This document shows positions 3,655-32,607 of a DNA stretch of 64,000 nt, one piece after another. Made by a program: the position numbers and the translations under genes. The stretch spans positions 101,590 to 165,589 of the forward strand of contig CAWBZL010000002.1 of the NCBI GenBank assembly GCA_963793275.1, given 5' to 3'. Source of the stretch: an uncultured Flavobacteriaceae bacterium. GTDB lineage: Bacteria; Bacteroidota; Bacteroidia; Flavobacteriales; Flavobacteriaceae. The notes beneath the pieces are model-generated. The model was not told where the DNA came from, made no database searches, and saw only the letters and a list, made by a program, of their open reading frames with translations. Every line of letters starts with the position of its first letter. Within the stretch, counting starts at the first letter, position 1.

Positions 3655-4191
3655 ATGAAACTAATTCTCACATTTTTAATGCTATCCACGATGCCATTGT
3701 CCGAACCACAGCTTATATTCAATTTTTCTGAAACTTCAAACCTTGATGCCTGGCGCATTGTAGACGATGGCGTTATGGGTGGAAAATCTAATGGATCTTT
3801 TTCTTTAACCGAAGACGGACACGGAAATTTTTCGGGGGTTATCTCGCTTAAAAATAATGGCGGATTTTCATCTGTGCGTCACAATTTCAACGAGATTTCA
3901 GTTACTGAGGACTCTAAAATATGCATTAAGTTGAAAGGAGATGGGAAGCAATATCAATTCAGAATAAAACACAATACGAACGATTACTACAGTTATATTT
4001 TCCCGTTTGAAACTTCCGGAGCGTGGGAAACTATAGAGATTGAACTGAAAGATATGTATCCTTCCTTCCGTGGAAGAAAACTGGATATGCCTAATTTTTC
4101 AGAAGACAGCATAGAAGAATTGGTTTTTTTGATAGGAAACAAGAAAGAGGAGGCATTTACGTTACTTCTTGATAACATTCAGCTAAAGTAA
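3655..4191 (+). CDS. CIA30 (complex I intermediate-associated protein 30)-family protein
   Basis: N-terminal signal and a WRIVDDGVMGGKSNGSF motif typical of the CIA30 family. Confidence 0.7.
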   Translation: MKLILTFLMLSTMPLSEPQLIFNFSETSNLDAWRIVDDGVMGGKSNGSFSLTEDGHGNFSGVISLKNNGGFSSVRHNFNEISVTEDSKICIKLKGDGKQYQFRIKHNTNDYYSYIFPFETSGAWETIEIELKDMYPSFRGRKLDMPNFSEDSIEELVFLIGNKKEEAFTLLLDNIQLK

Positions 4192-4216
4192 ATCGAAATT
4201 AACACCGGCCTTACTT

Positions 4217-5377
4217 CTATCCCCGGAAGAGAAAGAAATCGTCTTTCATAGGCTCAATCTTTTCGTCTTTGTTGGTGATGATATACTCCAGGGCCAGATC
4301 CGTAAACTCCTTGCCTTTTTCGGTAAGCGAAACTACATTTTTTTCAATTTCGATCATATTATTTTTTAGTGCCAAATGTACGACGGTTTTAGACCGTACT
4401 TTTTGCCAATTTATATGTTCCTGAAGGTGATTAATGTGTCTTTCTTCAACTTCGGAATGATTGTTTAAATGGAGTAGAAATGTGAGTAAAGAAACTTCGG
4501 TACGTTGTTGTTTCTGGCGGTATAAAACAGCGATGAGACCTTTCCGCGGAGCGAACAAATACACCATTAAAAATACAATTCCAAGCATAGTACTCATACT
4601 TCCCGAAATAGAAGCATCCAGCAAATGTGCCATCCAATACCCCGCTAGCGCAGAAAAAACACCAAAAAGTATAGACAATAGCAGCATTTTCTTTAGATCT
4701 GAAGTCAACAAATACGCCGTTGCGGCGGGTGCAATCATTAACGCAACCACCAGAATAGCTCCCACCGCGTCAAACGCACCCACTACCGTTACCGAACTAA
4801 CAGACATAAGTCCGTAATGCATAATAAGGGGGGAGATTCCTAATGCAGAAGACAGTCCGGCATCAAAAGTGCTTACCTTTAATTCTTTATAAAAAAGCAG
4901 AAGCAGCGCAATACTAATGATAAGGATAGTCCCCATGATCCATAGCGATTTTGGACCTACATCTATTCCAGCCATGAGAAGTCTGTCAAAAGGTGCAAAT
5001 GCCAGTTCTCCCAGTAACACTGCGTCCACATCCAGATGGACATCATTCGCATTTTTAGCAATTAAAATTACGCCAATACTGAACAACGCCGGAAAAACAA
5101 GGCCAATTGCGGTATCTTCTTTTACCATACCTGTTTTTTGAATGGCCTCTACCAAAACTACCGTAATAACGCCTGTGAGCGCAGCCAATAAAATAAGTAA
5201 GGGCGAATTGAGGTCTTGTGTAATGAAAAACCCGATCACAATTCCCGGCAGGATGGAATGACTAATAGCGTCACTAATAAGTGCCATCTTACGAAGTACT
5301 AAAAACACACCCGGAATAGCGCACGCTATAGCTACCACTACTGCAATAAGTTGTATTTCTATCTGTGGACTAGTCAT
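4217..5377 (-). CDS. metal (Mn/Zn/Fe) ABC transporter permease with C-terminal soluble extension
   Basis: Polytopic membrane core similar to MntD/ZnuB-type permeases. 8-nt overlap with the upstream permease gene. About 100 extra C-terminal residues. Confidence 0.85.
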   Translation of the reverse strand: MTSPQIEIQLIAVVVAIACAIPGVFLVLRKMALISDAISHSILPGIVIGFFITQDLNSPLLILLAALTGVITVVLVEAIQKTGMVKEDTAIGLVFPALFSIGVILIAKNANDVHLDVDAVLLGELAFAPFDRLLMAGIDVGPKSLWIMGTILIISIALLLLFYKELKVSTFDAGLSSALGISPLIMHYGLMSVSSVTVVGAFDAVGAILVVALMIAPAATAYLLTSDLKKMLLLSILFGVFSALAGYWMAHLLDASISGSMSTMLGIVFLMVYLFAPRKGLIAVLYRQKQQRTEVSLLTFLLHLNNHSEVEERHINHLQEHINWQKVRSKTVVHLALKNNMIEIEKNVVSLTEKGKEFTDLALEYIITNKDEKIEPMKDDFFLFRG

Positions 5378-6646: not shown

Positions 6647-7384
6647 CTATTTGTTTACCGCTACTTTATAGTTGATCCCGTAGGTTTTTGTCAAATTATC
6701 GTCGTTAAAAATTTCCTTCACGGGACCTGTGGCTATTTTTTTTACGTTTAAAAAAGTAACCCAATCAAAATATTCCGGGACCGTTTGTAGATCGTGGTGT
6801 ACAACCACTACTGTTTTTCCGTCTTTTCTAAGTTGCTTCAGGATATTGATAATGGCAATTTCGGTAGTGGCATCTACTCCTTGAAAGGGTTCATCCATAA
6901 AATAAATGGCTGCATTTTGAACCAATGCCCGCGCTAAAAATACACGTTGCTGCTGCCCACCGCTTAACTGACTTATCTGCCGGTTTTTAAATGCCAGCAT
7001 TCCTACTTTCTCCAGGGCTTCAAGAGAAGCTTTCTTTTCTTTTCTCCCGGGGCGTTTTATCCAACCTAGCTGCCCGTAGGTGCCCATCATAACCACATCC
7101 AGTGCCGTCGTGGGAAAATCCCAGTCTACACTCCCTTTTTGAGGAACGTAGGCTACTAGTTTACGTTGTTTTTTGTAGGGCTTTCCGTAGATAGAGACAC
7201 TGCCGGCAATAGGATCTAAAATTCCTAAAATTGCTTTTATTAAGGTAGATTTTCCTGCTCCGTTAGGTCCAACAATCGCCATTAAAACTCCTTCGGGAAC
7301 GTGCAGATCTATATCCCACAAAACAGGTTTGTAGTTATAAGCTACCGTGAGATCGTCTACTTGTATGGCGTATTTCGTTTCCAT
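6647..7384 (-). CDS. metal ABC transporter ATP-binding protein
   Basis: Walker [10 protein letters not shown], signature LSGGQQQR, Walker B IYFMDEP. Confidence 0.9.
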
Positions 7385-28508: not shown

Positions 28509-28726
28509 AATCCCTTAGAATCAATCTAAATCAGAACAATAATTTTGAAAACTGCATCATTTTTCATCATATTTGCCACCAAATGAGAACGATTAGTTTA
28601 CATACACCACAAATAGGACTGAATTTTCAGTGGGAATATCGTGCGATGAAAAATTCAGATTCACGGTACAGGGCGTTATGTAACTTTTTTTGAGATAAAA
28701 ATAAACTCTAAAACAACATTTATATA

Positions 28727-28755
28727 AAGCGTCCGATCCAACGGGCGCTTTTTTT
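28727..28755 (+). terminator. Rho-independent terminator
   Basis: GCGTCCG (28729-28735) pairs with CGGGCGC (28742-28748), including one G-U, followed by T7. Confidence 0.6.
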
Positions 28756-29228: not shown

Positions 29229-29804
29229 ATGAACACAAATACACATAATTTATACTTATTCAAGGCTATGGAGGCATACCCTTGGGACCTTGAAAAAGCG
29301 GTTGAAGCATTGCAATATGCTTTGTCTTACGAACCAGAAAACGTAACCGCCCTTTGTTTGATGGCAAAAGTACACGCCGAACAACTAAGCGATTATGAAA
29401 CCGCAAAAAGCTATTTTGAAAAAGCAGTAGCAAGCGATATACGTGCCACCAAAATATATCCGGATTATGTACGTACGTTACTACAGAATCACGATTTTGA
29501 GGAAGCTCAAAAGCTGATAGATTTTGCGATGACTGTAAAAGCGGTGGATAGAGGTGGTTTACAATTATTGCAAGGGCAATTGTTTGAAAACTTGCAAAAG
29601 TTTGAAAAAGCTGAAGCAGCTTTAAAAGAAGCTCGTAACCTAGGGTTAAATTCAGATTTTATCGAATTTGTTGAAAGCGAATTGGAGCGCGTCACCAAAA
29701 AAAGGGAACGCCAAAACAATGAGCAAAAAACCGACAACTCTAAGGAAACAGCTAAAACGGAAGATTCAAAAAGCTGGGTCCACAGGCTAAGTAGCTTACT
29801 ATAA
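29229..29804 (+). CDS. TPR-like helical repeat protein with charged C-terminal tail
   Basis: Helical repeat pattern (ALCLMAKVHAEQLSDYETAKSYFEKAV). ATG at 29229 preferred over the upstream GTG. Confidence 0.55.
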   Translation: MNTNTHNLYLFKAMEAYPWDLEKAVEALQYALSYEPENVTALCLMAKVHAEQLSDYETAKSYFEKAVASDIRATKIYPDYVRTLLQNHDFEEAQKLIDFAMTVKAVDRGGLQLLQGQLFENLQKFEKAEAALKEARNLGLNSDFIEFVESELERVTKKRERQNNEQKTDNSKETAKTEDSKSWVHRLSSLL

Positions 29805-29849
29805 ATCAGGATAAAATCTAAGTTTAATTTATAAAGGAAACAATAAAAT

Positions 29850-29871
29850 CCGCTCTCTGTAAAGAGGGTGG
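29850..29871 (+). other. GNRA-capped hairpin immediately upstream of the tRNA array
   Basis: CCGCTCTCT-gtaa-AGAGGGTGG, 9 bp including two G-U pairs that are valid only on the + strand. Confidence 0.6.
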
Positions 29872-29876
29872 TATAC

Positions 29877-29960
29877 GGGAGTGCGTCAACGCTGGAGAGT
29901 TGAGATAGTCTGTAAAACTATTCCTTAGTAGCTGAATAGGTTCAAATCCTTTCACTCCCA
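29877..29960 (+). tRNA. tRNA-Tyr (GTA), class II, 84 nt
   Basis: Acceptor GGGAGTG/CACTCCC, anticodon arm ATAGT-CTGTAAA-ACTAT, variable stem TTAG/CTGA, T loop TTCAAAT. Atypical C8 and one U-U mismatch in the T stem. No encoded CCA. Confidence 0.75.
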
Positions 29961-29963
29961 CAG

Positions 29964-30036
29964 AGTACCGTAGTTCAAAGGCTGGAGCGTCCGGTTGTCT
30001 CCCGGAAAGGTACGGGTTCGAGTCCCGTCGGTACTG
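29964..30036 (+). tRNA. tRNA-Asp (GTC)
   Basis: Acceptor AGTACCG/CGGTACT, D arm GTTC/GAGC, anticodon arm TCCGG-TTGTCTC-CCGGA, T arm ACGGG-TTCGAGT-CCCGT, discriminator G. Atypical A1-U72 and U37. Confidence 0.85.
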
Positions 30037-30115
30037 CGAATGATATTGAAGGAGTTTGCATCGGGACGAGAAGTTTATCCTGAGTAGTGGTGAGGCACGA
30101 GCCGCGAATCGAAGG

Positions 30116-30130
30116 GAGTCCCGTCGGTAC
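30116..30130 (+). repeat. 15-nt direct copy of the tRNA-Asp 3' end (GAGTCCCGTCGGTAC)
   Basis: Identical to 30020-30034, the T-loop/T-stem/acceptor 3' strand of tRNA-Asp, and lies 96 nt downstream of it. Confidence 0.85.
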
Positions 30131-30168
30131 GGTCATGCCTCCGACGAGAGAGGCACGAACCAGAGGAA

Positions 30169-30240
30169 GGCACTTTAGCATAGTGGTTGGTGCACCTCAC
30201 TTTCTATGAGGAGACCAGGGTTTGATTCCCTGATGGAGTA
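30169..30240 (+). pseudogene. tRNA-Glu(TTC)-like unit with non-pairing acceptor strands
   Basis: The D arm GCAT/GTGC and anticodon arm CCTCA-CTTTCTA-TGAGG are good, and the T stem CAGGG/CCCTG pairs. But the T loop is TTTGATT (no C56), position 37 is U, and 5' GGCACTT versus 3' ATGGAGT pair at only 3 of 7 positions. Confidence 0.5.
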
Positions 30241-30244
30241 CAAT

Positions 30245-30340
30245 GGGCTTATGGTGTAGCGGATAGCATGCTTGGCTTCGAACCAAGTGGTATGTTGCCT
30301 GTGCCGCACTTGATGCGGTATTCAAATCCTGTTAAGCCCA
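30245..30340 (+). ncRNA. 96-nt tRNA-Arg(TCG)-like element with an inserted hairpin and no canonical T stem
   Basis: Perfect acceptor GGGCTTA/TAAGCCC, D arm GTGT/GCAT, anticodon arm CTTGG-CTTCGAA-CCAAG. This is followed by 33 nt containing hairpin CCGCA-cttga-TGCGG (30304-30318). A TTCAAAT loop is present but its flanks (CGGTA / CCTGT) do not pair. Confidence 0.5.
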
Positions 30341-30345
30341 CAAAT

Positions 30346-30418
30346 TGAGGTATAACTCAGCGGCTAGAGTACCGTGCTTTTAACACGGGAGTCCTAGGTT
30401 CAAATCCTAGTGCCTCAA
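30346..30418 (+). tRNA. tRNA-Lys (TTT)
   Basis: Acceptor TGAGGTA/TGCCTCA (one G-U), D arm ACTC/GAGT, anticodon arm CCGTG-CTTTTAA-CACGG, T arm CTAGG-TTCAAAT-CCTAG. U1-A72. Confidence 0.85.
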
Positions 30419-30422
30419 CAAT

Positions 30423-30493
30423 AAACCCATAGTGTAGTGGTAGCACACAAGATTTTGATTCTTGGGGTCTGAGTTCGAATCTCGGTGGGTTTA
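30423..30493 (+). tRNA. tRNA-Gln (TTG)
   Basis: Acceptor AAACCCA/TGGGTTT, D arm GTGT/GCAC, anticodon arm CAAGA-TTTTGAT-TCTTG, T arm CTGAG-TTCGAAT-CTCGG. Confidence 0.85.
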
Positions 30494-30501
30494 CACTATA
30501 T

Positions 30502-30574
30502 GGAACAGTAGCAAAGCGGGTCAATGCACTGGATTGAAGCTCCAGGAATACGGGTTCGAGTCCTGTCTGTTCCA
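30502..30574 (+). tRNA. tRNA-Phe (GAA)
   Basis: Acceptor GGAACAG/CTGTTCC, anticodon arm CTGGA-TTGAAGC-TCCAG, T arm ACGGG-TTCGAGT-CCTGT. Confidence 0.85.
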
Positions 30575-30730
30575 CGAAAGGTCTGTAACGCAGATGATAG
30601 TATCAAGCGGGTCTTGTTGTGTGTTTCGGTATAGCACCATTGCATACGGCGTTGCAACTAGTATTGCGAACGTATGTGCAACTTGACTTGAAGGTTTTGC
30701 TGTTTTCCAAAAAATAGCGGCAATCGTTTC

Positions 30731-30754
30731 GTGGGTTCGAATCCCACTCCCGCC
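30731..30754 (+). other. orphan tRNA T arm plus 3' acceptor-type strand with no matching 5' strand upstream
   Basis: GTGGG-TTCGAAT-CCCAC followed by TCCCGCC. No GGCGGGA-like partner exists in the preceding 156 nt. Confidence 0.6.
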
Positions 30755-30757
30755 CAA

Positions 30758-30842
30758 GCAGGGATAGCGTAGTGGTTAACGCACCAGATAAAGGATCTGG
30801 CAAACGAGAGCAGATGTCGCGGGTTCGACTCCCGCTCCCAAT
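30758..30842 (+). ncRNA. 85-nt tRNA-like element with a non-canonical anticodon loop (TAAAGGA) and an 18-nt variable region
   Basis: D arm GCGT-AGTGGTTA-ACGC and T arm GCGGG-TTCGACT-CCCGC are perfect. Anticodon stem CCAGA/TCTGG pairs, but loop position 33 is A (or a 6-bp stem with a 5-nt loop forms). Own acceptor strands GCAGGGA / TCCCAAT pair at only 4-5 positions. Confidence 0.45.
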
Positions 30843-30846
30843 GTAA

Positions 30847-30916
30847 ATTGGGGTAGCTCAGTTGGTAGAGCACTGCACTTTTAATGCAGGTAATGGACTC
30901 AAAATCCATCATCGTA
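30847..30916 (+). pseudogene. tRNA-Lys(TTT)-like unit lacking a matching 3' acceptor strand
   Basis: ATTGGGG-TA-GCTC-AGTTGGTA-GAGC and the anticodon arm CTGCA-CTTTTAA-TGCAG are canonical. The T arm ATGGA-CTCAAAA-TCCAT lacks TTC. The 3' strand CATCGTA does not pair with the 5' strand. Confidence 0.5.
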
Positions 30917-30973
30917 AAGAAGGTCAACTTTTAAAAAAGACCACCAGCCTGTCACGCTGTTAAATTTGACAAA

Positions 30974-31336
30974 AATAGTATGGGAAGCGTCGGTTTAGAT
31001 TTGCTGAAACGTGAATGAAGAACACTCCTGAAAGTACCTTGAGTGGCGCCGGTGGCTAGTAAAGAATAAATTTCTTTGTGAGCATTTTGAAACCATTGAA
31101 CCTTTTTATTAGGAATCCGTACCTGGAGCCTACTAAAAGGAAGGATGTGGTTTCAACGCCTTACAAACAGGTTTTGTAACTGGTAGCCACCCCGTCACTC
31201 CGTCACTGGAAAGAGGATGTGCCCTGTACTGTTTTTAATTGAAAAGGATTGCGTTAGGGATTGAGCGTTATGTATGAGCTCTTTTTAATTGTTTGAGCAA
31301 TTAGAAAAGCGAGTAGCGAAAGCCCGACCCAGTATT
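30974..31336 (+). ncRNA. candidate large structured RNA (four-way-junction core at 31023-31221)
   Basis: No ORF longer than 14 aa across 30917-31345. Hand-found nested helices include a 16-bp helix 31041-31058/31184-31200 enclosing three hairpins. See findings for details. Confidence 0.4.
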
Positions 31337-31448
31337 GCTTGAGGTATGAAAAGCGATATTGGGAAACGCCCAAAATACAAAAGAAATACACGGTCCCCGT
31401 TACAGACTGTGTTGTTAACTGAATGTTTAATTTCTAAAACTTAAAAAA

Positions 31449-32552
31449 ATGAAAAGAGTTAGAATTAATACCGGAATGGTAGGTTTGGTCTTCAAGAGAG
31501 GAGATTACAAACGAGTAGTAACACAAGGTGTCTATTGGTTAAGCTTTGGAGAGCGTGTTGTAAAATACAACCTTGCCGAAGCCATGCGCAAGGCACCCGT
31601 AGCATTAGAAATTCTTGAAAGGGACGAAGCTTTGGTGGCCCTTTGGCACCAGGTAGATGTTTTGGATACAGAATTGGTCATCGTTTATAAGAACGGCCAA
31701 TACAACCAGATATTAACAGCTGGAAGATATGTATTCTGGAAAGGGTTGATAGACTACAGCTTTACACGTGTAGACCTTACAAAGATCTATATCACGGAAG
31801 CGATTGATACGTCACTTTTTGCCAAATTAGAATTGGCCAAGTATATCCGTTCTTTTGAAGTGGCAACATCTGAAAAAGCGGTGCTTTTAGTAGACGATGT
31901 TTATGTGAAAACCTTAACCGGTGGTACGTACCGCTTCTGGAGAAATGAAACCACTATTAAAATTGCAAAAGCAGATATGCGACAATTGCAATTGGAAGTA
32001 GCTGGACAGGAATTGTTAACCAAGGATAAAGCGGCAATCCGTATCAACTTTTACGCGCAGTATAAAGTAAGCAATGTGGAGCGAGCGCTCTTGGAAAATA
32101 AGGACTACGAGAAGCAATTATACGTGGCTATGCAGTTGGCGTTACGTGCGTATGTAGGTACGTATACTTTAGACGAACTTTTGGAAAACAAATCACAAAT
32201 CGCGAACGCTGTGTTTGAAGACACAAAGACAGCCGCAGATAAATTGGGTGTTACGGTAGTATACTGTGGAATCCGGGATGTGATCTTAACCGGGGAAATG
32301 AAGGACATCATGAACCAGGTGTTGGTTGCACAAAAGAAAGCTCAGGCTAATGTAATTACAAGACGTGAAGAAACAGCTTTGACCAGAAGCTTGTTGAATA
32401 CCGCCAAATTAATGGAGGACAATACCATGCTTTACAAATTGAAAGAGATGGAATACGTAGAGAAAATTGCCGACAAGATTGGCGAGATCACCGTTTCCGG
32501 AAACGGAAACATGGTGAAACAATTAACCGAAATTTTTGCGGTGAGCAAATAG
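31449..32552 (+). CDS. SPFH/band-7 (slipin-like) domain protein
   Basis: The C-terminal half matches the SPFH pattern (LTKDKAAIRINFYAQYKV..., coiled-coil tail). Confidence 0.8.
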   Translation: MKRVRINTGMVGLVFKRGDYKRVVTQGVYWLSFGERVVKYNLAEAMRKAPVALEILERDEALVALWHQVDVLDTELVIVYKNGQYNQILTAGRYVFWKGLIDYSFTRVDLTKIYITEAIDTSLFAKLELAKYIRSFEVATSEKAVLLVDDVYVKTLTGGTYRFWRNETTIKIAKADMRQLQLEVAGQELLTKDKAAIRINFYAQYKVSNVERALLENKDYEKQLYVAMQLALRAYVGTYTLDELLENKSQIANAVFEDTKTAADKLGVTVVYCGIRDVILTGEMKDIMNQVLVAQKKAQANVITRREETALTRSLLNTAKLMEDNTMLYKLKEMEYVEKIADKIGEITVSGNGNMVKQLTEIFAVSK

Positions 32553-32572
32553 TGCCTTAACGGTAGGTGCAA

Positions 32573-32607
32573 GCACTGGGAGTTATATAACTTCTGGTGC
32601 TTTTTTT
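32573..32607 (+). terminator. Rho-independent terminator after the SPFH gene
   Basis: About 12-bp stem 32573-32584/32589-32600 with several G-U pairs valid only on the + strand, then T7 (32601-32607). Overlaps the 3' end of the convergent small ORF. Confidence 0.6.

What the first reader, a model, noticed from the sequence alone, without database searches (positions are those of the whole stretch)
29850..30916. Dense array of ten tRNA-sized units, half canonical and half aberrant, with features atypical of core bacterial tRNAs
The units lie on the same strand with spacers of only 3-8 nt between most of them. Five fold by hand into standard cloverleaves: Tyr-GTA, Asp-GTC, Lys-TTT, Gln-TTG and Phe-GAA. 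Even these are unusual. The 1-72 pair is A-U or U-A in Asp, Lys and Gln. Tyr has C8 and a U-U mismatch in the T stem. Asp has U37. None encodes CCA. The remaining units (Glu-like, a 96-nt Arg-like, an orphan T arm, an 85-nt unit with loop TAAAGGA, and a second Lys-like) cannot form a normal acceptor stem or T arm. No protein-coding gene lies within 1.64 kb. This mix resembles the tRNA arrays carried by phages and mobile elements rather than a core tRNA operon, although no integrase or phage gene is in the window.
Basis: partly seen in the sequence, partly recalled or inferred. Interest (0 to 1): 0.75.

Follow-up and report, generated by a model that had tools for sequence, protein, structure and literature searches.

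The report
tRNA array fused to tRNA-mimic RNA
The ten "tRNA-sized units" are really a partly decayed spare tRNA array followed by the tRNA-like core of a conserved, apparently undescribed ~640-base structured RNA that, in every one of the 131 Flavobacteriaceae genome and metagenome loci long enough to check, lies just upstream of a stomatin-like gene.

Summary

The ten units are two different things.

(1) 29877-30575 is a supernumerary tRNA array of a type found at this same locus across Flavobacteriaceae, with 0-19 tRNAs even among congeners. Here five tRNAs are intact (Tyr, Asp, Lys, Gln, Phe). Glu has a broken acceptor stem, Arg-TCG carries a 24-nt insertion, and 30038-30169 is debris. The "odd" features are family-wide, for example U37 in 65/70 Asp and 42/44 Glu.

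(2) The "orphan T arm", the TAAAGGA unit and the "second Lys" are not decayed tRNAs. They are part of one conserved RNA (~30599-31237). It is present in 78/78 genome loci and upstream of slipin in 53/53 metagenome loci. It has 94.7% pairing versus about 40% in slid controls, and 78/98 pairs show compensatory changes. It holds two YrlA-like permuted tRNA modules (T arm, closed acceptor hairpin, D arm), three pseudoknots, and a closing helix followed by a U tract.

No Rfam family, phage, plasmid or paper match was found. The conserved block is TPR gene, array, RNA, slipin. Function is inferred, not shown.

The parts
29229..29804 (+). TPR-repeat protein gene (191 aa from the ATG; the ORF list starts it at GTG 29199). 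It is the conserved upstream neighbour of the RNA block.
   Evidence: Pfam TPR families. A homolog lies on the same strand upstream of the array or RNA in at least 51/81 loci. In several loci its stop codon is only 13-26 nt from the first tRNA.
29877..29960 (+). tRNA-Tyr(GTA), class II, with C8 and a U-U pair in the T stem. Probably functional.
   Evidence: ARAGORN; Rfam 34.3 bits. C8 occurs in 28/56 array Tyr genes. 89% identical to the L001 copy.
29964..30036 (+). tRNA-Asp(GTC) with A1-U72 and U37.
   Evidence: ARAGORN and Rfam 55.4 bits. A1 occurs in 62/70 and U37 in 65/70 array Asp genes.
30038..30169 (+). Array debris with no tRNA call. It holds a second copy of the Asp 3' end (GAGTCCCGTCGGTAC at 30116-30130; original at 30020-30034).
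   Evidence: No ARAGORN or Rfam hit. Fold no better than shuffles, z = -0.25. Homologous to the post-Asp gap of L001/L081.
30170..30241 (+). tRNA-Glu(TTC) with U37 and a broken acceptor stem. Likely a pseudogene or impaired.
   Evidence: Rfam 42.3 bits with three unpaired acceptor positions. Position 8 is A here, against T in 44/44 array Glu genes.
30245..30340 (+). tRNA-Arg(TCG) pseudogene. A 24-nt insertion (30294-30317) splits the 5' side of the T arm.
   Evidence: Alignment with 73-nt Arg-TCG genes of L001, L002, L060 and L093. Rfam 39.5 bits.
30346..30418 (+). tRNA-Lys(TTT) with U1-A72.
   Evidence: 64.1 bits. U1 occurs in 44/44 array Lys genes.
30423..30493 (+). tRNA-Gln(TTG) with A1-U72.
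   Evidence: 66.0 bits. A1 or U1 occurs in 62/65 array Gln genes.
30502..30574 (+). tRNA-Phe(GAA) with G37. It is the last array tRNA and abuts the structured RNA.
   Evidence: 65.6 bits. G37 occurs in 44/68 array Phe genes. In many loci a tRNA ends 0-40 nt before the RNA starts.
30599..31237 (+). Whole conserved structured RNA (~640 nt): a 5' domain, two permuted tRNA-like modules, tandem pseudoknots, and a downstream domain closed by a long-range helix followed by a U tract.
   Evidence: nhmmer finds it in 78/78 loci with enough upstream sequence. 53/53 metagenome loci have slipin downstream. Covariation. No Rfam family other than tRNA fragments.
30603..30718 (+). 5' domain: P1 30603-12/30681-91, P2 30621-25/30633-37, P3 30642-56/30660-77, PK1 GG 30693-94/CC 30707-08, P4 30700-04/30713-18.
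   Evidence: Helices 1-5 are 93.8-100% paired, and 25 of 37 pairs show double changes. Coordinates.
   Evidence: AS1 averages 6.19/7 pairs in 69 sequences, against 3.14/7 at 428 ordinary tRNA junctions. All 6 AS1 pairs covary. Sub-threshold YrlA hit of 24.3 bits.
30784..30800 (+). Anticodon-like hairpin AC1 (CCAGA-UAAAGGA-UCUGG). By my reading of alignment A1 it occurs in only about 11 of 69 sequences. The other sequences close module I with a two-strand stem instead.
   Evidence: Alignment A1. The closing stem in the other sequences is 92.6% paired with 4/5 pairs covarying (helix 6).
30819..30889 (+). tRNA-like module II: T arm 30819-35, closed acceptor hairpin AS2 30836-41/30848-53, D arm 30856-71, anticodon arm 30873-89 (UUU here).
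   Evidence: AS2 averages 6.38/7 pairs, and 6/6 pairs covary. YrlA hit of 42.4 bits against a gathering score of 69. The anticodon differs between species: UUU, CAU, GUU, UAG, UAA and others.
30893..30909 (+). Degenerate T-like hairpin T3* (AUGGA-CUCAAAA-UCCAU).
   Evidence: 82.6% paired, 5/5 pairs with double changes (helix 15).
30917..30970 (+). Two tandem H-type pseudoknots: PKA (AAG 30917-19/CTT 30928-30 with GGTCA 30922-26/AGACC 30938-42), then P6 CAGC 30945-48/GCTG 30956-59 with PK2 GTCA 30951-54/TGAC 30967-70.
   Evidence: Helices 16-20 (87.8-94.2% paired for the main stems, with double changes). Coordinates.
30976..31236 (+). Downstream domain closed by a 16-bp long-range helix (30976-30991 with 31216-31231), followed by TTTTT at 31232-31236.
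   Evidence: 87.8% paired, 15/16 pairs compensatory; slid controls give 36-46%. A run of at least 4 T follows the helix in 60/64 loci.
31248..31333 (+). Flavo-1-like repeat in the variable spacer before slipin (sub-threshold).
   Evidence: Rfam Flavo-1 15.8 bits against a gathering score of 42. Above-threshold Flavo-1 hits lie in the same spacer in L009 and L011.
31449..32552 (+). Slipin (stomatin-like SPFH protein, 367 aa). It is the invariant downstream neighbour of the RNA.

Best explanation
SHOWN. The region is a composite.

(a) 29877-30575 is a member of a Flavobacteriaceae-wide array of extra tRNA genes. It lies between a TPR gene and a slipin gene and is partly decayed in this genome: five intact tRNAs, Glu and Arg-TCG damaged, and one stretch of debris.

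(b) 30599-31237 is a conserved structured RNA of about 640 nt. Its core consists of two circularly permuted tRNA-like modules. In each, a canonical T arm is joined through a closed, covarying 'acceptor' hairpin to a canonical D arm, so the tRNA elbow is kept. There is no free acceptor end and no conserved anticodon.

INFERRED, about 0.4 for this mechanism. The TPR gene, the tRNAs and the RNA are transcribed together. The RNA's 5' end is released by the RNase Z/RNase P processing of the flanking tRNA, and its 3' end is set by the closing helix plus U tract. The mature RNA cannot be charged or decode. It acts as a stable tRNA mimic and scaffold that binds elbow-recognising partners, and it works as a ribonucleoprotein with the proteins encoded on either side: the TPR protein and the oligomer-forming stomatin-like slipin. 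This would parallel YrlA with Ro60 and OLE RNA with OapA.

The array tRNAs, with their conserved unusual anticodon loops (U37 in Asp and Glu, G37 in Phe), are most likely an alternative tRNA set kept for conditions in which the housekeeping tRNAs fail or are attacked.
For: Composition: tRNA calls and scores; 24-nt insertion in Arg-TCG; debris does not fold better than shuffles.

Array family and dispensability. The gene order is conserved (Lys Ser Ser Asn Cys Tyr Trp Asp Pro Glu Val Ile Met Leu Leu Arg Gln His Phe Arg), with 0 to 19 tRNAs among congeners. Atypical features are conserved family-wide. 0/760 array tRNAs encode CCA.

RNA: found in 78/78 genome loci. In an independent search seeded from the RNA itself, 53/53 metagenome loci reaching at least 1.1 kb downstream have slipin on the same strand. 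RNAalifold gives 75 pairs, 58 of them compensatory. For the hand-drawn structure of 98 pairs in 20 helices, 94.7% of cells are paired against 37.5-44.8% when slid, the covariation score is 0.452 against 0.07-0.10, and 0/500 shuffles reach it. Closed acceptor hairpins average 6.19 and 6.38 of 7 pairs, against 3.14/7 at 428 ordinary tRNA junctions and 2.70/7 for the ordinary-cloverleaf alternative. Downstream helix and U tract.

Gene linkage: the downstream neighbours HDAC, Tex and MetRS are kept in only 8-9/81 loci, but TPR is kept in at least 51/81 and slipin in all. The TPR stop lies 13-26 nt from the first tRNA in several loci. The simple scan finds conventional hairpin terminators only before TPR (28726-28751) and after slipin (32571-32602).

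The slipin model resembles oligomeric stomatin/HflK assemblies and, over 235 residues, the major vault protein.
Against: - There is no expression, end-mapping or binding data, so transcription, processing and any protein partner are inferred from gene order only.
- A cis-regulatory role for slipin is not excluded. The RNA is always upstream on the same strand, and the helix plus U tract could be a conditional terminator.
- The promoter-motif scan is uninformative. Exact TAnnTTTG is absent upstream of TPR too, in 0/51 loci, so co-transcription is not established.
- The variable anticodon arm, and the swapping of whole tRNA-type cassettes between lineages, could mean that part of the tRNA-like region is evolutionary baggage rather than functional.
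- That U37 and G37 are atypical for the hosts' housekeeping tRNAs rests on general tRNA knowledge. The genomes' full tRNA sets could not be read here.
- PADLOC gives no defence-system hit for either protein.
Confidence: 0.55

Rival explanations
1. The conserved RNA is a very long cis-acting leader or attenuator of the slipin gene. The tRNA-like modules bind a tRNA-recognising factor, and this decides whether the closing helix plus U tract terminates transcription before slipin.
For: The RNA lies upstream of slipin on the same strand in 131/131 informative loci. A U tract follows the 16-bp helix in 60/64 loci, 66-397 nt before the ATG. No conventional hairpin terminator lies between TPR and the slipin stop. 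Conserved motifs continue up to the start codon.
Against: At about 640 nt and at least 26 helices, it is far larger than known bacterial leaders. The TPR gene upstream is conserved as well, which a slipin leader does not explain. GOLLD-like and other RNAs are inserted directly at its 5' end in many loci without disturbing it. No alternative (antiterminator) pairing was identified.
Confidence: 0.3
2. All five aberrant units are simply decaying tRNA pseudogenes in a dying array.
For: This holds for Glu, the 96-nt Arg-like unit and 30038-30169. The closest relative, L001, shows a different set of damaged genes: its Lys has an insertion in the T loop.
Against: Units 8-10 are conserved in 78/78 loci, including a dozen loci with no tRNA array at all. 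Their pairing covaries. The pairing that is conserved is between neighbouring units (6.2-6.4/7), not within a cloverleaf (2.7/7).
Confidence: 0.02
3. This is an ordinary core tRNA operon that supplies the cell's main Tyr, Asp, Lys, Gln and Phe tRNAs.
For: The flanks are housekeeping genes (SerRS, RecQ, Tex, MetRS). Five genes score as good tRNAs.
Against: Congeners lack the array altogether or carry up to 19 genes. tRNA identity to a genome whose slipin gene is 88% identical is only 86-96%. Positions 1, 8 and 37 are atypical. Members are being lost to insertions.
Confidence: 0.03
4. This is a recently acquired phage or mobile-element tRNA island (a classical horizontally transferred L-array).
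For: Long, dense, same-strand arrays of supernumerary tRNAs are the hallmark of L-arrays (PMC8421152). GOLLD-like RNAs, typical of phage and prophage tRNA islands, lie in the array in at least 15 relatives (PMC12286853, PMC6582537). Content turns over rapidly and the blocks are shuffled between the window and L001.
Against: The chromosomal site and gene order are the same across many genera. No integrase or phage gene lies nearby. GC in the surrounding 2-kb bins is only mildly raised, 0.365 and 0.444 against 0.35-0.43 elsewhere. There are no matches in phages, plasmids or IMG/VR.
Confidence: 0.1
5. The tRNA-like RNA is a bacterial Y RNA (YrlA) that tethers Ro60/Rsr.
For: The T arm, closed acceptor stem-loop and D arm architecture is that of YrlA (PMC4201824). 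Sub-threshold Rfam YrlA hits occur in the window (42.4 bits) and in L040, L043 and L071 (35-41 bits).
Against: All scores are below the gathering score of 69. No TROVE/Rsr gene lies within about 8 kb. The Ro-binding motif GNCGAAN0-1G is absent from the window RNA and present in only 2/69 relatives. The RNA is about six times longer than YrlA and has two modules.
Confidence: 0.03

Closest known systems
YrlA (Y RNA-like) RNAs of Salmonella, Mycobacterium and phages (Rfam RF02553; Chen et al. 2014, PMC4201824)
   Same: A tRNA-like domain built as T arm, closed acceptor-like stem-loop and D arm, closed by a stem that stands in for the anticodon stem. The elbow nucleotides are canonical (GGTTCGAATCC T loop, GG in the D loop, U8). 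It cannot act as a normal tRNA.
   Different: About 640 nt with two modules, a 125-nt 5' domain, three pseudoknots and a 260-nt 3' domain. There is no Ro-binding motif and no adjacent rsr gene. It scores below the Rfam threshold. Its neighbours are a TPR protein and a stomatin-like protein.
[quoted passage not shown] 2021, PMC8421152) and Mycobacterium/phage tRNA islands with GOLLD RNA (PMC6582537, PMC12286853)
   Same: Dense same-strand arrays of supernumerary tRNAs with very short spacers. Content varies between close relatives, pseudo-tRNAs are present, and a large ornate RNA is associated with the array (GOLLD-like in relatives).
   Different: The array sits at a fixed chromosomal site conserved across a bacterial family, with no homing endonuclease or phage genes seen. 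It is preceded by a protein gene only 13-70 nt away and followed by a different, unnamed structured RNA.
OLE RNA with OapA/B/C, and eukaryotic vault RNA with MVP (analogies for mode of action only)
   Same: A large structured non-coding RNA whose gene is invariably next to genes for the proteins it is thought to work with. Here the neighbour is a stomatin/SPFH-type protein, predicted to oligomerise, whose model also aligns with the major vault protein over 235 residues.
tmRNA, including two-piece permuted forms
   Same: tRNA-like T arm and acceptor elements combined with several H-type pseudoknots. In permuted ssrA genes the gene order is T arm, acceptor 3' strand, loop, acceptor 5' strand.
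   Different: ARAGORN calls no tmRNA. Rfam matches only 18 nt (16.2 bits). There is no G3-U70 pair, no CCA end and no tag reading frame.

Membership tests
Canonical elongator tRNA (Rfam RF00005 / ARAGORN cloverleaf) | Full cloverleaf with a 7-bp acceptor stem formed within the unit, a 7-nt anticodon loop with U33 and a purine at 37, and a T arm | tested here: met
   Met for Tyr, Lys, Gln and Phe (64-66 bits; Tyr 34 bits as a class II tRNA). Asp (55 bits) has the full cloverleaf but carries U37, so it fails the purine-37 criterion as written.
Canonical elongator tRNA (Rfam RF00005 / ARAGORN cloverleaf) | The same features, applied to the five 'aberrant' units | tested here: not met
   Glu has 3 unpaired acceptor positions. 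Arg-TCG has a 24-nt insertion in the T arm. The orphan T arm has no other arms. The 86-nt unit lacks U33, and its within-unit acceptor pairing is not conserved (2.7/7 across 69 sequences). The last unit has no acceptor 3' strand.
Supernumerary long tRNA array (L-array sensu PMC8421152) | Many same-strand tRNA genes close enough to be co-transcribed | tested here: met
   Spacers are 2-7 nt in the window. Related loci hold up to 19 genes with 3-10 nt spacers.
Supernumerary long tRNA array (L-array sensu PMC8421152) | The genes are redundant with the housekeeping set, with patchy presence among close relatives | tested here: inconclusive
   Patchy presence is shown: 0-19 genes among congeners of Tenacibaculum, Winogradskyella, Maribacter and Aquimarina. 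Redundancy within this genome could not be read, because only 64 kb is available.
Supernumerary long tRNA array (L-array sensu PMC8421152) | Spread by horizontal transfer (found on phages, plasmids or ICEs; sprinkled phylogenetic distribution) | tested here: not met
   The site and gene order are the same across genera. There are no phage, plasmid or IMG/VR matches.
YrlA / bacterial Y RNA | tRNA-like domain: T arm, acceptor-like stem-loop, D arm | tested here: met
   Two such modules are present, with covarying closed acceptor hairpins.
YrlA / bacterial Y RNA | Ro60-binding module with the GNCGAAN0-1G motif | tested here: not met
   The motif is absent from 30599-31237 and present in 2/69 relatives, at non-homologous positions.
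YrlA / bacterial Y RNA | Encoded next to an rsr (TROVE) gene | tested here: not met
   The ten neighbouring ORFs between 21.4 and 38.0 kb have other Pfam domains. The rest of the genome is not available.
YrlA / bacterial Y RNA | Rfam RF02553 gathering score (69 bits) | tested here: not met
   42.4 and 24.3 bits in the window; 35-41 bits in L040, L043 and L071.
tmRNA | Alanine-type acceptor stem with a free CCA end, a tag reading frame, and detection by ARAGORN or Rfam | tested here: not met
   ARAGORN finds none. Rfam gives only an 18-nt local match of 16.2 bits against a gathering score of 47. The acceptor hairpins are closed, and the 3-70 pair is U-A in AS2 (sequences).
GOLLD RNA (RF02032) | Match to the conserved 3' domain model | tested here: not met
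   There is no hit in window 29700-31500 even at E<=10. Relatives L025 and L040 have full-length hits of 136 and 121 bits (gathering score 150), directly upstream of the RNA described here and not overlapping it.
New family proposed here (Flavobacteriaceae slipin-upstream tRNA-mimic RNA) | 5' domain motif GTCYNGWTNNGYGTYTCNNWANRRCRCNAWTGYRT; T1-AS1-D1 and T2-AS2-D2 modules; tandem pseudoknots; closing helix plus U tract; slipin downstream | tested here: met
   The window copy has every helix, aligns end to end with relatives, and lies 212 nt upstream of slipin.

The most novel reading that the evidence does not exclude
The TPR gene, tRNA array, (GOLLD-like RNA), ~640-nt tRNA-mimic RNA and slipin together form a previously unrecognised chromosomal 'RNA island' system of Flavobacteriaceae. 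In this reading the large RNA, with its two tRNA elbows, is bound or enclosed by a cage-forming, vault/stomatin-like protein, with the TPR protein as adaptor. This would be a bacterial counterpart of vault or Ro/Y ribonucleoproteins. Its proposed role is to manage an alternative tRNA set with nuclease- or modification-insensitive anticodon loops during translational stress, toxin attack or phage attack.
Probability: 0.15. Interest if true: 0.9.

Novelty: new variant of a known kind. Interest (0 to 1): 0.78.

Why it matters
1. It changes how the feature should be annotated. tRNA finders and Rfam label parts of this RNA as 'tRNA-Leu(AAG)', 'tRNA-Lys', 'tRNA-Arg (96 nt)' and so on in many Flavobacteriaceae genomes, so these genomes carry false tRNA or pseudo-tRNA calls.

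2. It defines a large structured RNA with unusually strong comparative support. No Rfam family, phage or plasmid relative, or paper in the searched library matches it. Large RNAs of this complexity are rare, and each one found so far (RNase P RNA, tmRNA, OLE, GOLLD, ROOL, raiA) has opened new biology.

3. In relatives it places GOLLD-like RNAs and tRNA arrays, whose functions are long-standing open questions, in a fixed chromosomal operon of cultivable marine bacteria. That context has only two conserved protein genes, which makes genetic and biochemical tests straightforward.

4. The family-wide U37 (Asp, Glu) and G37 (Phe) tRNAs give a concrete test of the idea that spare tRNA sets are kept because they escape anticodon-loop-directed enzymes (PMC10264068).

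Tried and rejected
- Rfam on the whole window at gathering score and on 29700-31500 at E<=10 gave only tRNA matches plus sub-threshold YrlA, tmRNA-fragment and Flavo-1 hits. GOLLD, ROOL, OLE, RNase P and tmRNA are rejected for the window.
- BLAST of the array and of the RNA against phages and plasmids gave only single tRNA or tRNA-junction matches.
- Three IMG/VR pattern scans found nothing: the RNA 5' domain, array-type Glu, and array-type Lys.
- PADLOC gave no hit for the TPR protein or slipin. NCBIfam gave only weak HflK-like and TPR matches.
- Scans for the Bacteroidetes -7 promoter motif TAnnTTTG found none between the RNA and slipin, or between TPR and the array. I first read this as support for co-transcription. 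The control then showed 0/51 exact motifs upstream of the TPR gene as well, so the scan is uninformative and I do not use it.
- The sigma-70 and terminator consensus scan gave promoter hits at the level of shuffles. Only the two flanking terminators are noted.
- Eight full-text literature searches found no description of this RNA, and I read six papers (PMC4201824, PMC8421152, PMC9723704, PMC12286853, PMC6582537, PMC11109978). Morgado et al. 2020 on GOLLD in tRNA arrays was not available.
- I considered true permuted or split tRNA genes. This is rejected because, by my reading of alignment A1, module I has no anticodon loop in most sequences (about 58/69), and the anticodon of module II is not conserved.
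- I did not build a covariance model. nhmmer, the IUPAC pattern and the pair counts already answered the questions that could be asked of the sequences held.

Full report
**1. The observation**

ARAGORN finds seven tRNA genes on the + strand between 29877 and 30843: Tyr-gta, Asp-gtc, Glu-ttc, Lys-ttt, Gln-ttg, Phe-gaa and a 'Leu-aag' of 86 nt. It finds none elsewhere in the 64-kb window.

Rfam's tRNA model gives nine matches above its gathering score of 29 bits. Four are strong: Gln 66.0, Phe 65.6, Lys 64.1 and Asp 55.4. Five are weak: Glu 42.3, the 86-nt unit 40.9, a 96-nt unit at 30245-30340 39.5, a truncated Lys-like unit at 30853-30910 36.4 (model positions 7-64 only), and Tyr 34.3.

The alignments show unpaired acceptor positions in Glu and in the 86-nt unit, and T-stem defects in Tyr and in the 96-nt unit.
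- position 1 is A or U in Asp, Lys and Gln;
- Tyr has C8 and a U-U pair;
- Asp has U37;
- the TAAAGGA loop is present;
- no unit encodes CCA;
- 1644 nt lack a credible ORF.

The hand folds were essentially right.

**2. Context**

The flanking genes are ordinary chromosomal genes: SerRS, MarC, a methyltransferase, RecQ and a TPR protein upstream; a Band_7/slipin protein, a deacetylase-family protein, Tex and MetRS downstream. The slipin is 93% identical to that of a Flavobacteriaceae MAG (UBA1903) and 80% identical to that of Aureisphaera.

**3. The array is a family-wide feature**

I fetched 80 genome loci around slipin homologs of 66-93% identity, plus one Logan contig. Most carry a same-strand tRNA array upstream of slipin. 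It holds up to 19 genes with 3-10 nt spacers, in a recurring order: Lys Ser Ser Asn Cys Tyr Trp Asp Pro Glu Val Ile Met Leu Leu Arg Gln His Phe Arg.

Content differs greatly between congeners. Tenacibaculum ranges from 0 to 16, Winogradskyella from 0 to 14, Maribacter from 0 to 12, and Aquimarina from 5 to 16. Many arrays have gaps where genes have decayed. The array therefore cannot be the only source of these isoacceptors.

The 'odd' features are not local accidents. Over 152 loci:
- Asp has A1 in 62/70 and U37 in 65/70;
- Glu has U37 in 42/44;
- Lys has U1 in 44/44;
- Gln has A1 or U1 in 62/65;
- Tyr has C8 in 28/56;
- Phe has G37 in 44/68;
- none of 760 array tRNAs encodes CCA.

A pyrimidine at position 37, and G37 in a bacterial tRNA-Phe, are atypical by general tRNA knowledge. 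I could not compare them with the hosts' housekeeping genes.

Between the window and its closest relative L001, the slipin gene is 88% identical and the tRNAs are 86-96% identical. The blocks are in a different order.

**4. Real decay products in the window**

- The 96-nt unit is an Arg-TCG gene with a 24-nt insertion (30294-30317) in the 5' side of the T arm. In L001 it is the Lys gene that carries an insertion in the T loop.
- Glu has lost acceptor pairing and has A8 instead of the family's T8.
- 30038-30169 has no tRNA call and folds no better than shuffles (z = -0.25). It contains a second copy of the Asp 3' end (30116-30130).

**5. Units 8-10 belong to a conserved structured RNA**

BLAST and nhmmer show that window ~30599-30979 is conserved in 78 of 81 loci. 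The three exceptions are contigs with fewer than 500 nt upstream of slipin. The conserved loci include about a dozen with no tRNA array at all.

The MAFFT alignment of 69 sequences (A1) gives an RNAalifold structure of 75 pairs, 58 of them with compensatory double changes. I added helices seen by eye and counted pairs on the same alignment:

| Measure | Structure | Controls |
|---|---|---|
| Pairs / helices | 98 pairs in 20 helices, including three pseudoknots | not applicable |
| Cells paired | 94.7% | 37.5-44.8% when the 3' partner is slid by 1-3 columns |
| Pairs with changes on both sides | 78 | not applicable |
| Covariation score | 0.452 | 0.07-0.10 slid; 0.187 shuffled (0/500 shuffles reach it) |

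**6. Architecture, in window coordinates**

- A 5' domain (P1-P4 and a small pseudoknot, 30603-30718).
- T arm 1 (30731-47, the 'orphan T arm').
- A closed hairpin AS1 (30748-64).
- D arm 1 (30767-82).
- An anticodon-like hairpin with loop UAAAGGA (30784-800). By my reading of alignment A1 this occurs in only about 11/69 sequences. The rest close the module with a two-strand stem.
- T arm 2 (30819-35).
- A closed hairpin AS2 (30836-53).
- D arm 2 (30856-71).
- An anticodon arm (30873-89).
- A degenerate T-like hairpin (30893-909).
- Two tandem H-type pseudoknots (30917-70).

Each T arm is thus joined to the next D arm through a hairpin made from what look like the 3' acceptor strand of one 'tRNA' and the 5' acceptor strand of the next.

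A direct control compares these strand pairs. They form 6.19/7 (AS1) and 6.38/7 (AS2) pairs in the RNA, but only 3.14/7 at 428 ordinary junctions in the arrays. The ordinary-cloverleaf pairing of the middle unit averages 2.70/7. The window has the highest value, 5/7, which explains why ARAGORN calls a tRNA there.

The T loops (GGTTCGAnTCC), the GG of the D loops and U8 are conserved. The anticodon of the last arm is not: UUU in 21 sequences, CAU in 11, GUU in 6, UAG in 5, UAA in 5, and others.

**7. The RNA continues downstream**

The spacer before slipin is also conserved. On 64 sequences, RNAalifold finds a 16-bp long-range helix (window 30976-30991 with 31216-31231). It is 87.8% paired and 15/16 pairs are compensatory, against 36-46% pairing in slid controls. 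It encloses further covarying helices.

A run of at least four T follows its 3' strand in 60/64 loci (window TTTTT at 31232-36). This lies 66-397 nt (median 148) before the slipin ATG. The unit is therefore about 640 nt, 30599-31237.

**8. Linkage**

An independent metagenome scan used a 35-nt IUPAC pattern from the RNA's 5' domain and returned 71 loci. All 53 loci that extend at least 1.1 kb downstream have slipin on the same strand, 600-1000 nt after the pattern. Many also have the array upstream.

In the 81 genome loci, the window's downstream neighbours are kept in only 8-9. The TPR gene is found upstream on the same strand in at least 51, and its stop codon is often only 13-26 nt from the first tRNA. 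The conserved block is TPR, then the optional array, then the RNA, then slipin.

The consensus scan finds hairpin terminators only before TPR and after slipin. Exact promoter-motif scans proved uninformative.

**9. Comparison with known families**

The T arm, closed acceptor and D arm module is the architecture of YrlA Y RNAs (PMC4201824), and Rfam's YrlA model gives sub-threshold hits (42.4 bits against a gathering score of 69). But the Ro-binding motif is absent, no TROVE gene is nearby, and the RNA is six times longer. It works like YrlA in mimicking the upper half of a tRNA, but it is not a member of that family.

tmRNA is excluded. GOLLD is absent from the window.

No phage, plasmid or IMG/VR sequence matches. 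Eight literature searches found no description of the RNA.

The array fits the L-array concept (PMC8421152) in density and dispensability, but not in horizontal mobility.

**10. Mechanism (inferred)**

The modules keep the tRNA elbow. They have closed acceptor ends and no conserved anticodon, so they cannot be charged or decode. They are suited to partners that recognise tRNA shape.

I rate a stable, processed tRNA-mimic RNA acting with TPR and slipin at about 0.4. I rate a cis-acting attenuator of slipin at about 0.3.

The tRNAs that recur in minimal arrays are Tyr, Asp, Lys, Gln, Phe and sometimes Glu; L004 and L116 have the window's exact set. Most of these are tRNA species that known anticodon nucleases target (my own knowledge; concept in PMC10264068). 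This fits a back-up tRNA set, but it is not tested.

**11. Verdict**

It is wrong for three of the five aberrant units, which belong to a conserved and apparently undescribed large RNA. The array is a new member of a known kind. The RNA is a new family that uses a known trick (tRNA mimicry by a permuted tRNA module) in a new architecture and gene context.

Noticed in passing
L025 4714-5215; L040 4717-5199; homologous ~900-nt stretches in L009, L011, L014, L020, L028, L034, L044, L064, L068, L073, L085, L104, L113: A GOLLD-like RNA fills the ORF-free gap between the last array tRNA and the start of the tRNA-mimic RNA. It matches the full length of Rfam RF02032 (136 and 121 bits, E 6e-36 and 2e-31). 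All copies tested at the gathering threshold score below it (150 bits). This looks like a divergent chromosomal GOLLD subgroup in cultivable Flavobacteriaceae.
   Followed up: partly
L040 ~4058-4350; L001 4285-4515 (between Glu and Arg); just upstream of the main RNA in L006, L012, L026, L030, L031, L033, L038, L041, L046, L061, L064, L067, L071 and others: A second unnamed conserved RNA ('element B', ~215 nt, 39 distinct sequences). It is tRNA-like, with an open acceptor stem (ACCUCUU/AAGAGGU), a D arm, a T arm (GCCAGUUCGAAUCUGGU) and a conserved ~140-nt insert where the anticodon arm should be. It is 98.4% paired, and 23/41 pairs are compensatory. It has no Rfam hit and is absent from the window.
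   Followed up: partly
L009 3948-4018, L011 4088-4158, L014 141-212, L017 5074-5145, L022 4727-4798, L025 4148-4219, L028 4085-4156, L145 673-744: A conserved 71-72-nt tRNA-like gene at the His position, just before Phe. ARAGORN reads it as 'Tyr(ATA)', but the anticodon stem can extend to leave a 5-nt loop UAUAU. It is conserved across Winogradskyella- and Jejuia-type arrays, so it is not a random pseudogene.
   Followed up: partly
L017 5001-5072: At the Gln position the array carries a tRNA with anticodon TTA (read as 'stop', a potential ochre suppressor).
   Followed up: no
window 30294-30317; L001 ~4648-4665: Short hairpin-forming insertions (24 nt and 18 nt) have disrupted different tRNA genes in two closely related genomes: Arg in the window and Lys in L001. 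This suggests a small insertion process that targets T arms.
   Followed up: partly
window 31248-31333; L009 5624-5701; L011 5778-5851; L009, L064 and L068 ~7131-7285 (- strand): Flavo-1 RNA motifs (sub-threshold in the window, above threshold in relatives) sit in the variable spacer between the U tract and slipin, and again just downstream of slipin.
   Followed up: no
[not shown]
   Followed up: partly
window 30683-30693 and 31021-31045; alignment columns: The motif YUUGA(A/G) recurs in conserved single-stranded stretches of the RNA: CAACUUGACUUGAAGG in the 5' domain and CAGUCUUGAAAGUACYUUGAAAU in the downstream domain. It could be a repeated protein-binding site.
   Followed up: no
L036 3097-3951 (- strand); similar ~1-kb gaps in L030, L033, L047, L048: In Aquimarina a 284-aa multi-pass membrane protein gene lies on the opposite strand inside the array, between the Ile-TAT (or Met-CAT in some loci) and His genes.
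   Followed up: no
L081 431-598: A 55-aa GIY-YIG fragment lies between the SSB and RecQ genes, 3.6 kb upstream of the array in the closest relative. It could be a homing-endonuclease remnant, as seen next to other tRNA arrays. I did not check the window.
   Followed up: no
array junctions Val|Ile, Val|Lys, Ile|Met and Val|Met in several loci: At these junctions, the 3' acceptor strand of one tRNA is at least 6/7 complementary to the 5' strand of the next (14 of 14 cases). This is probably because these genes are paralogs with near-identical acceptor stems. It shows how closed-acceptor permuted modules could arise from tandem tRNAs.
   Followed up: no
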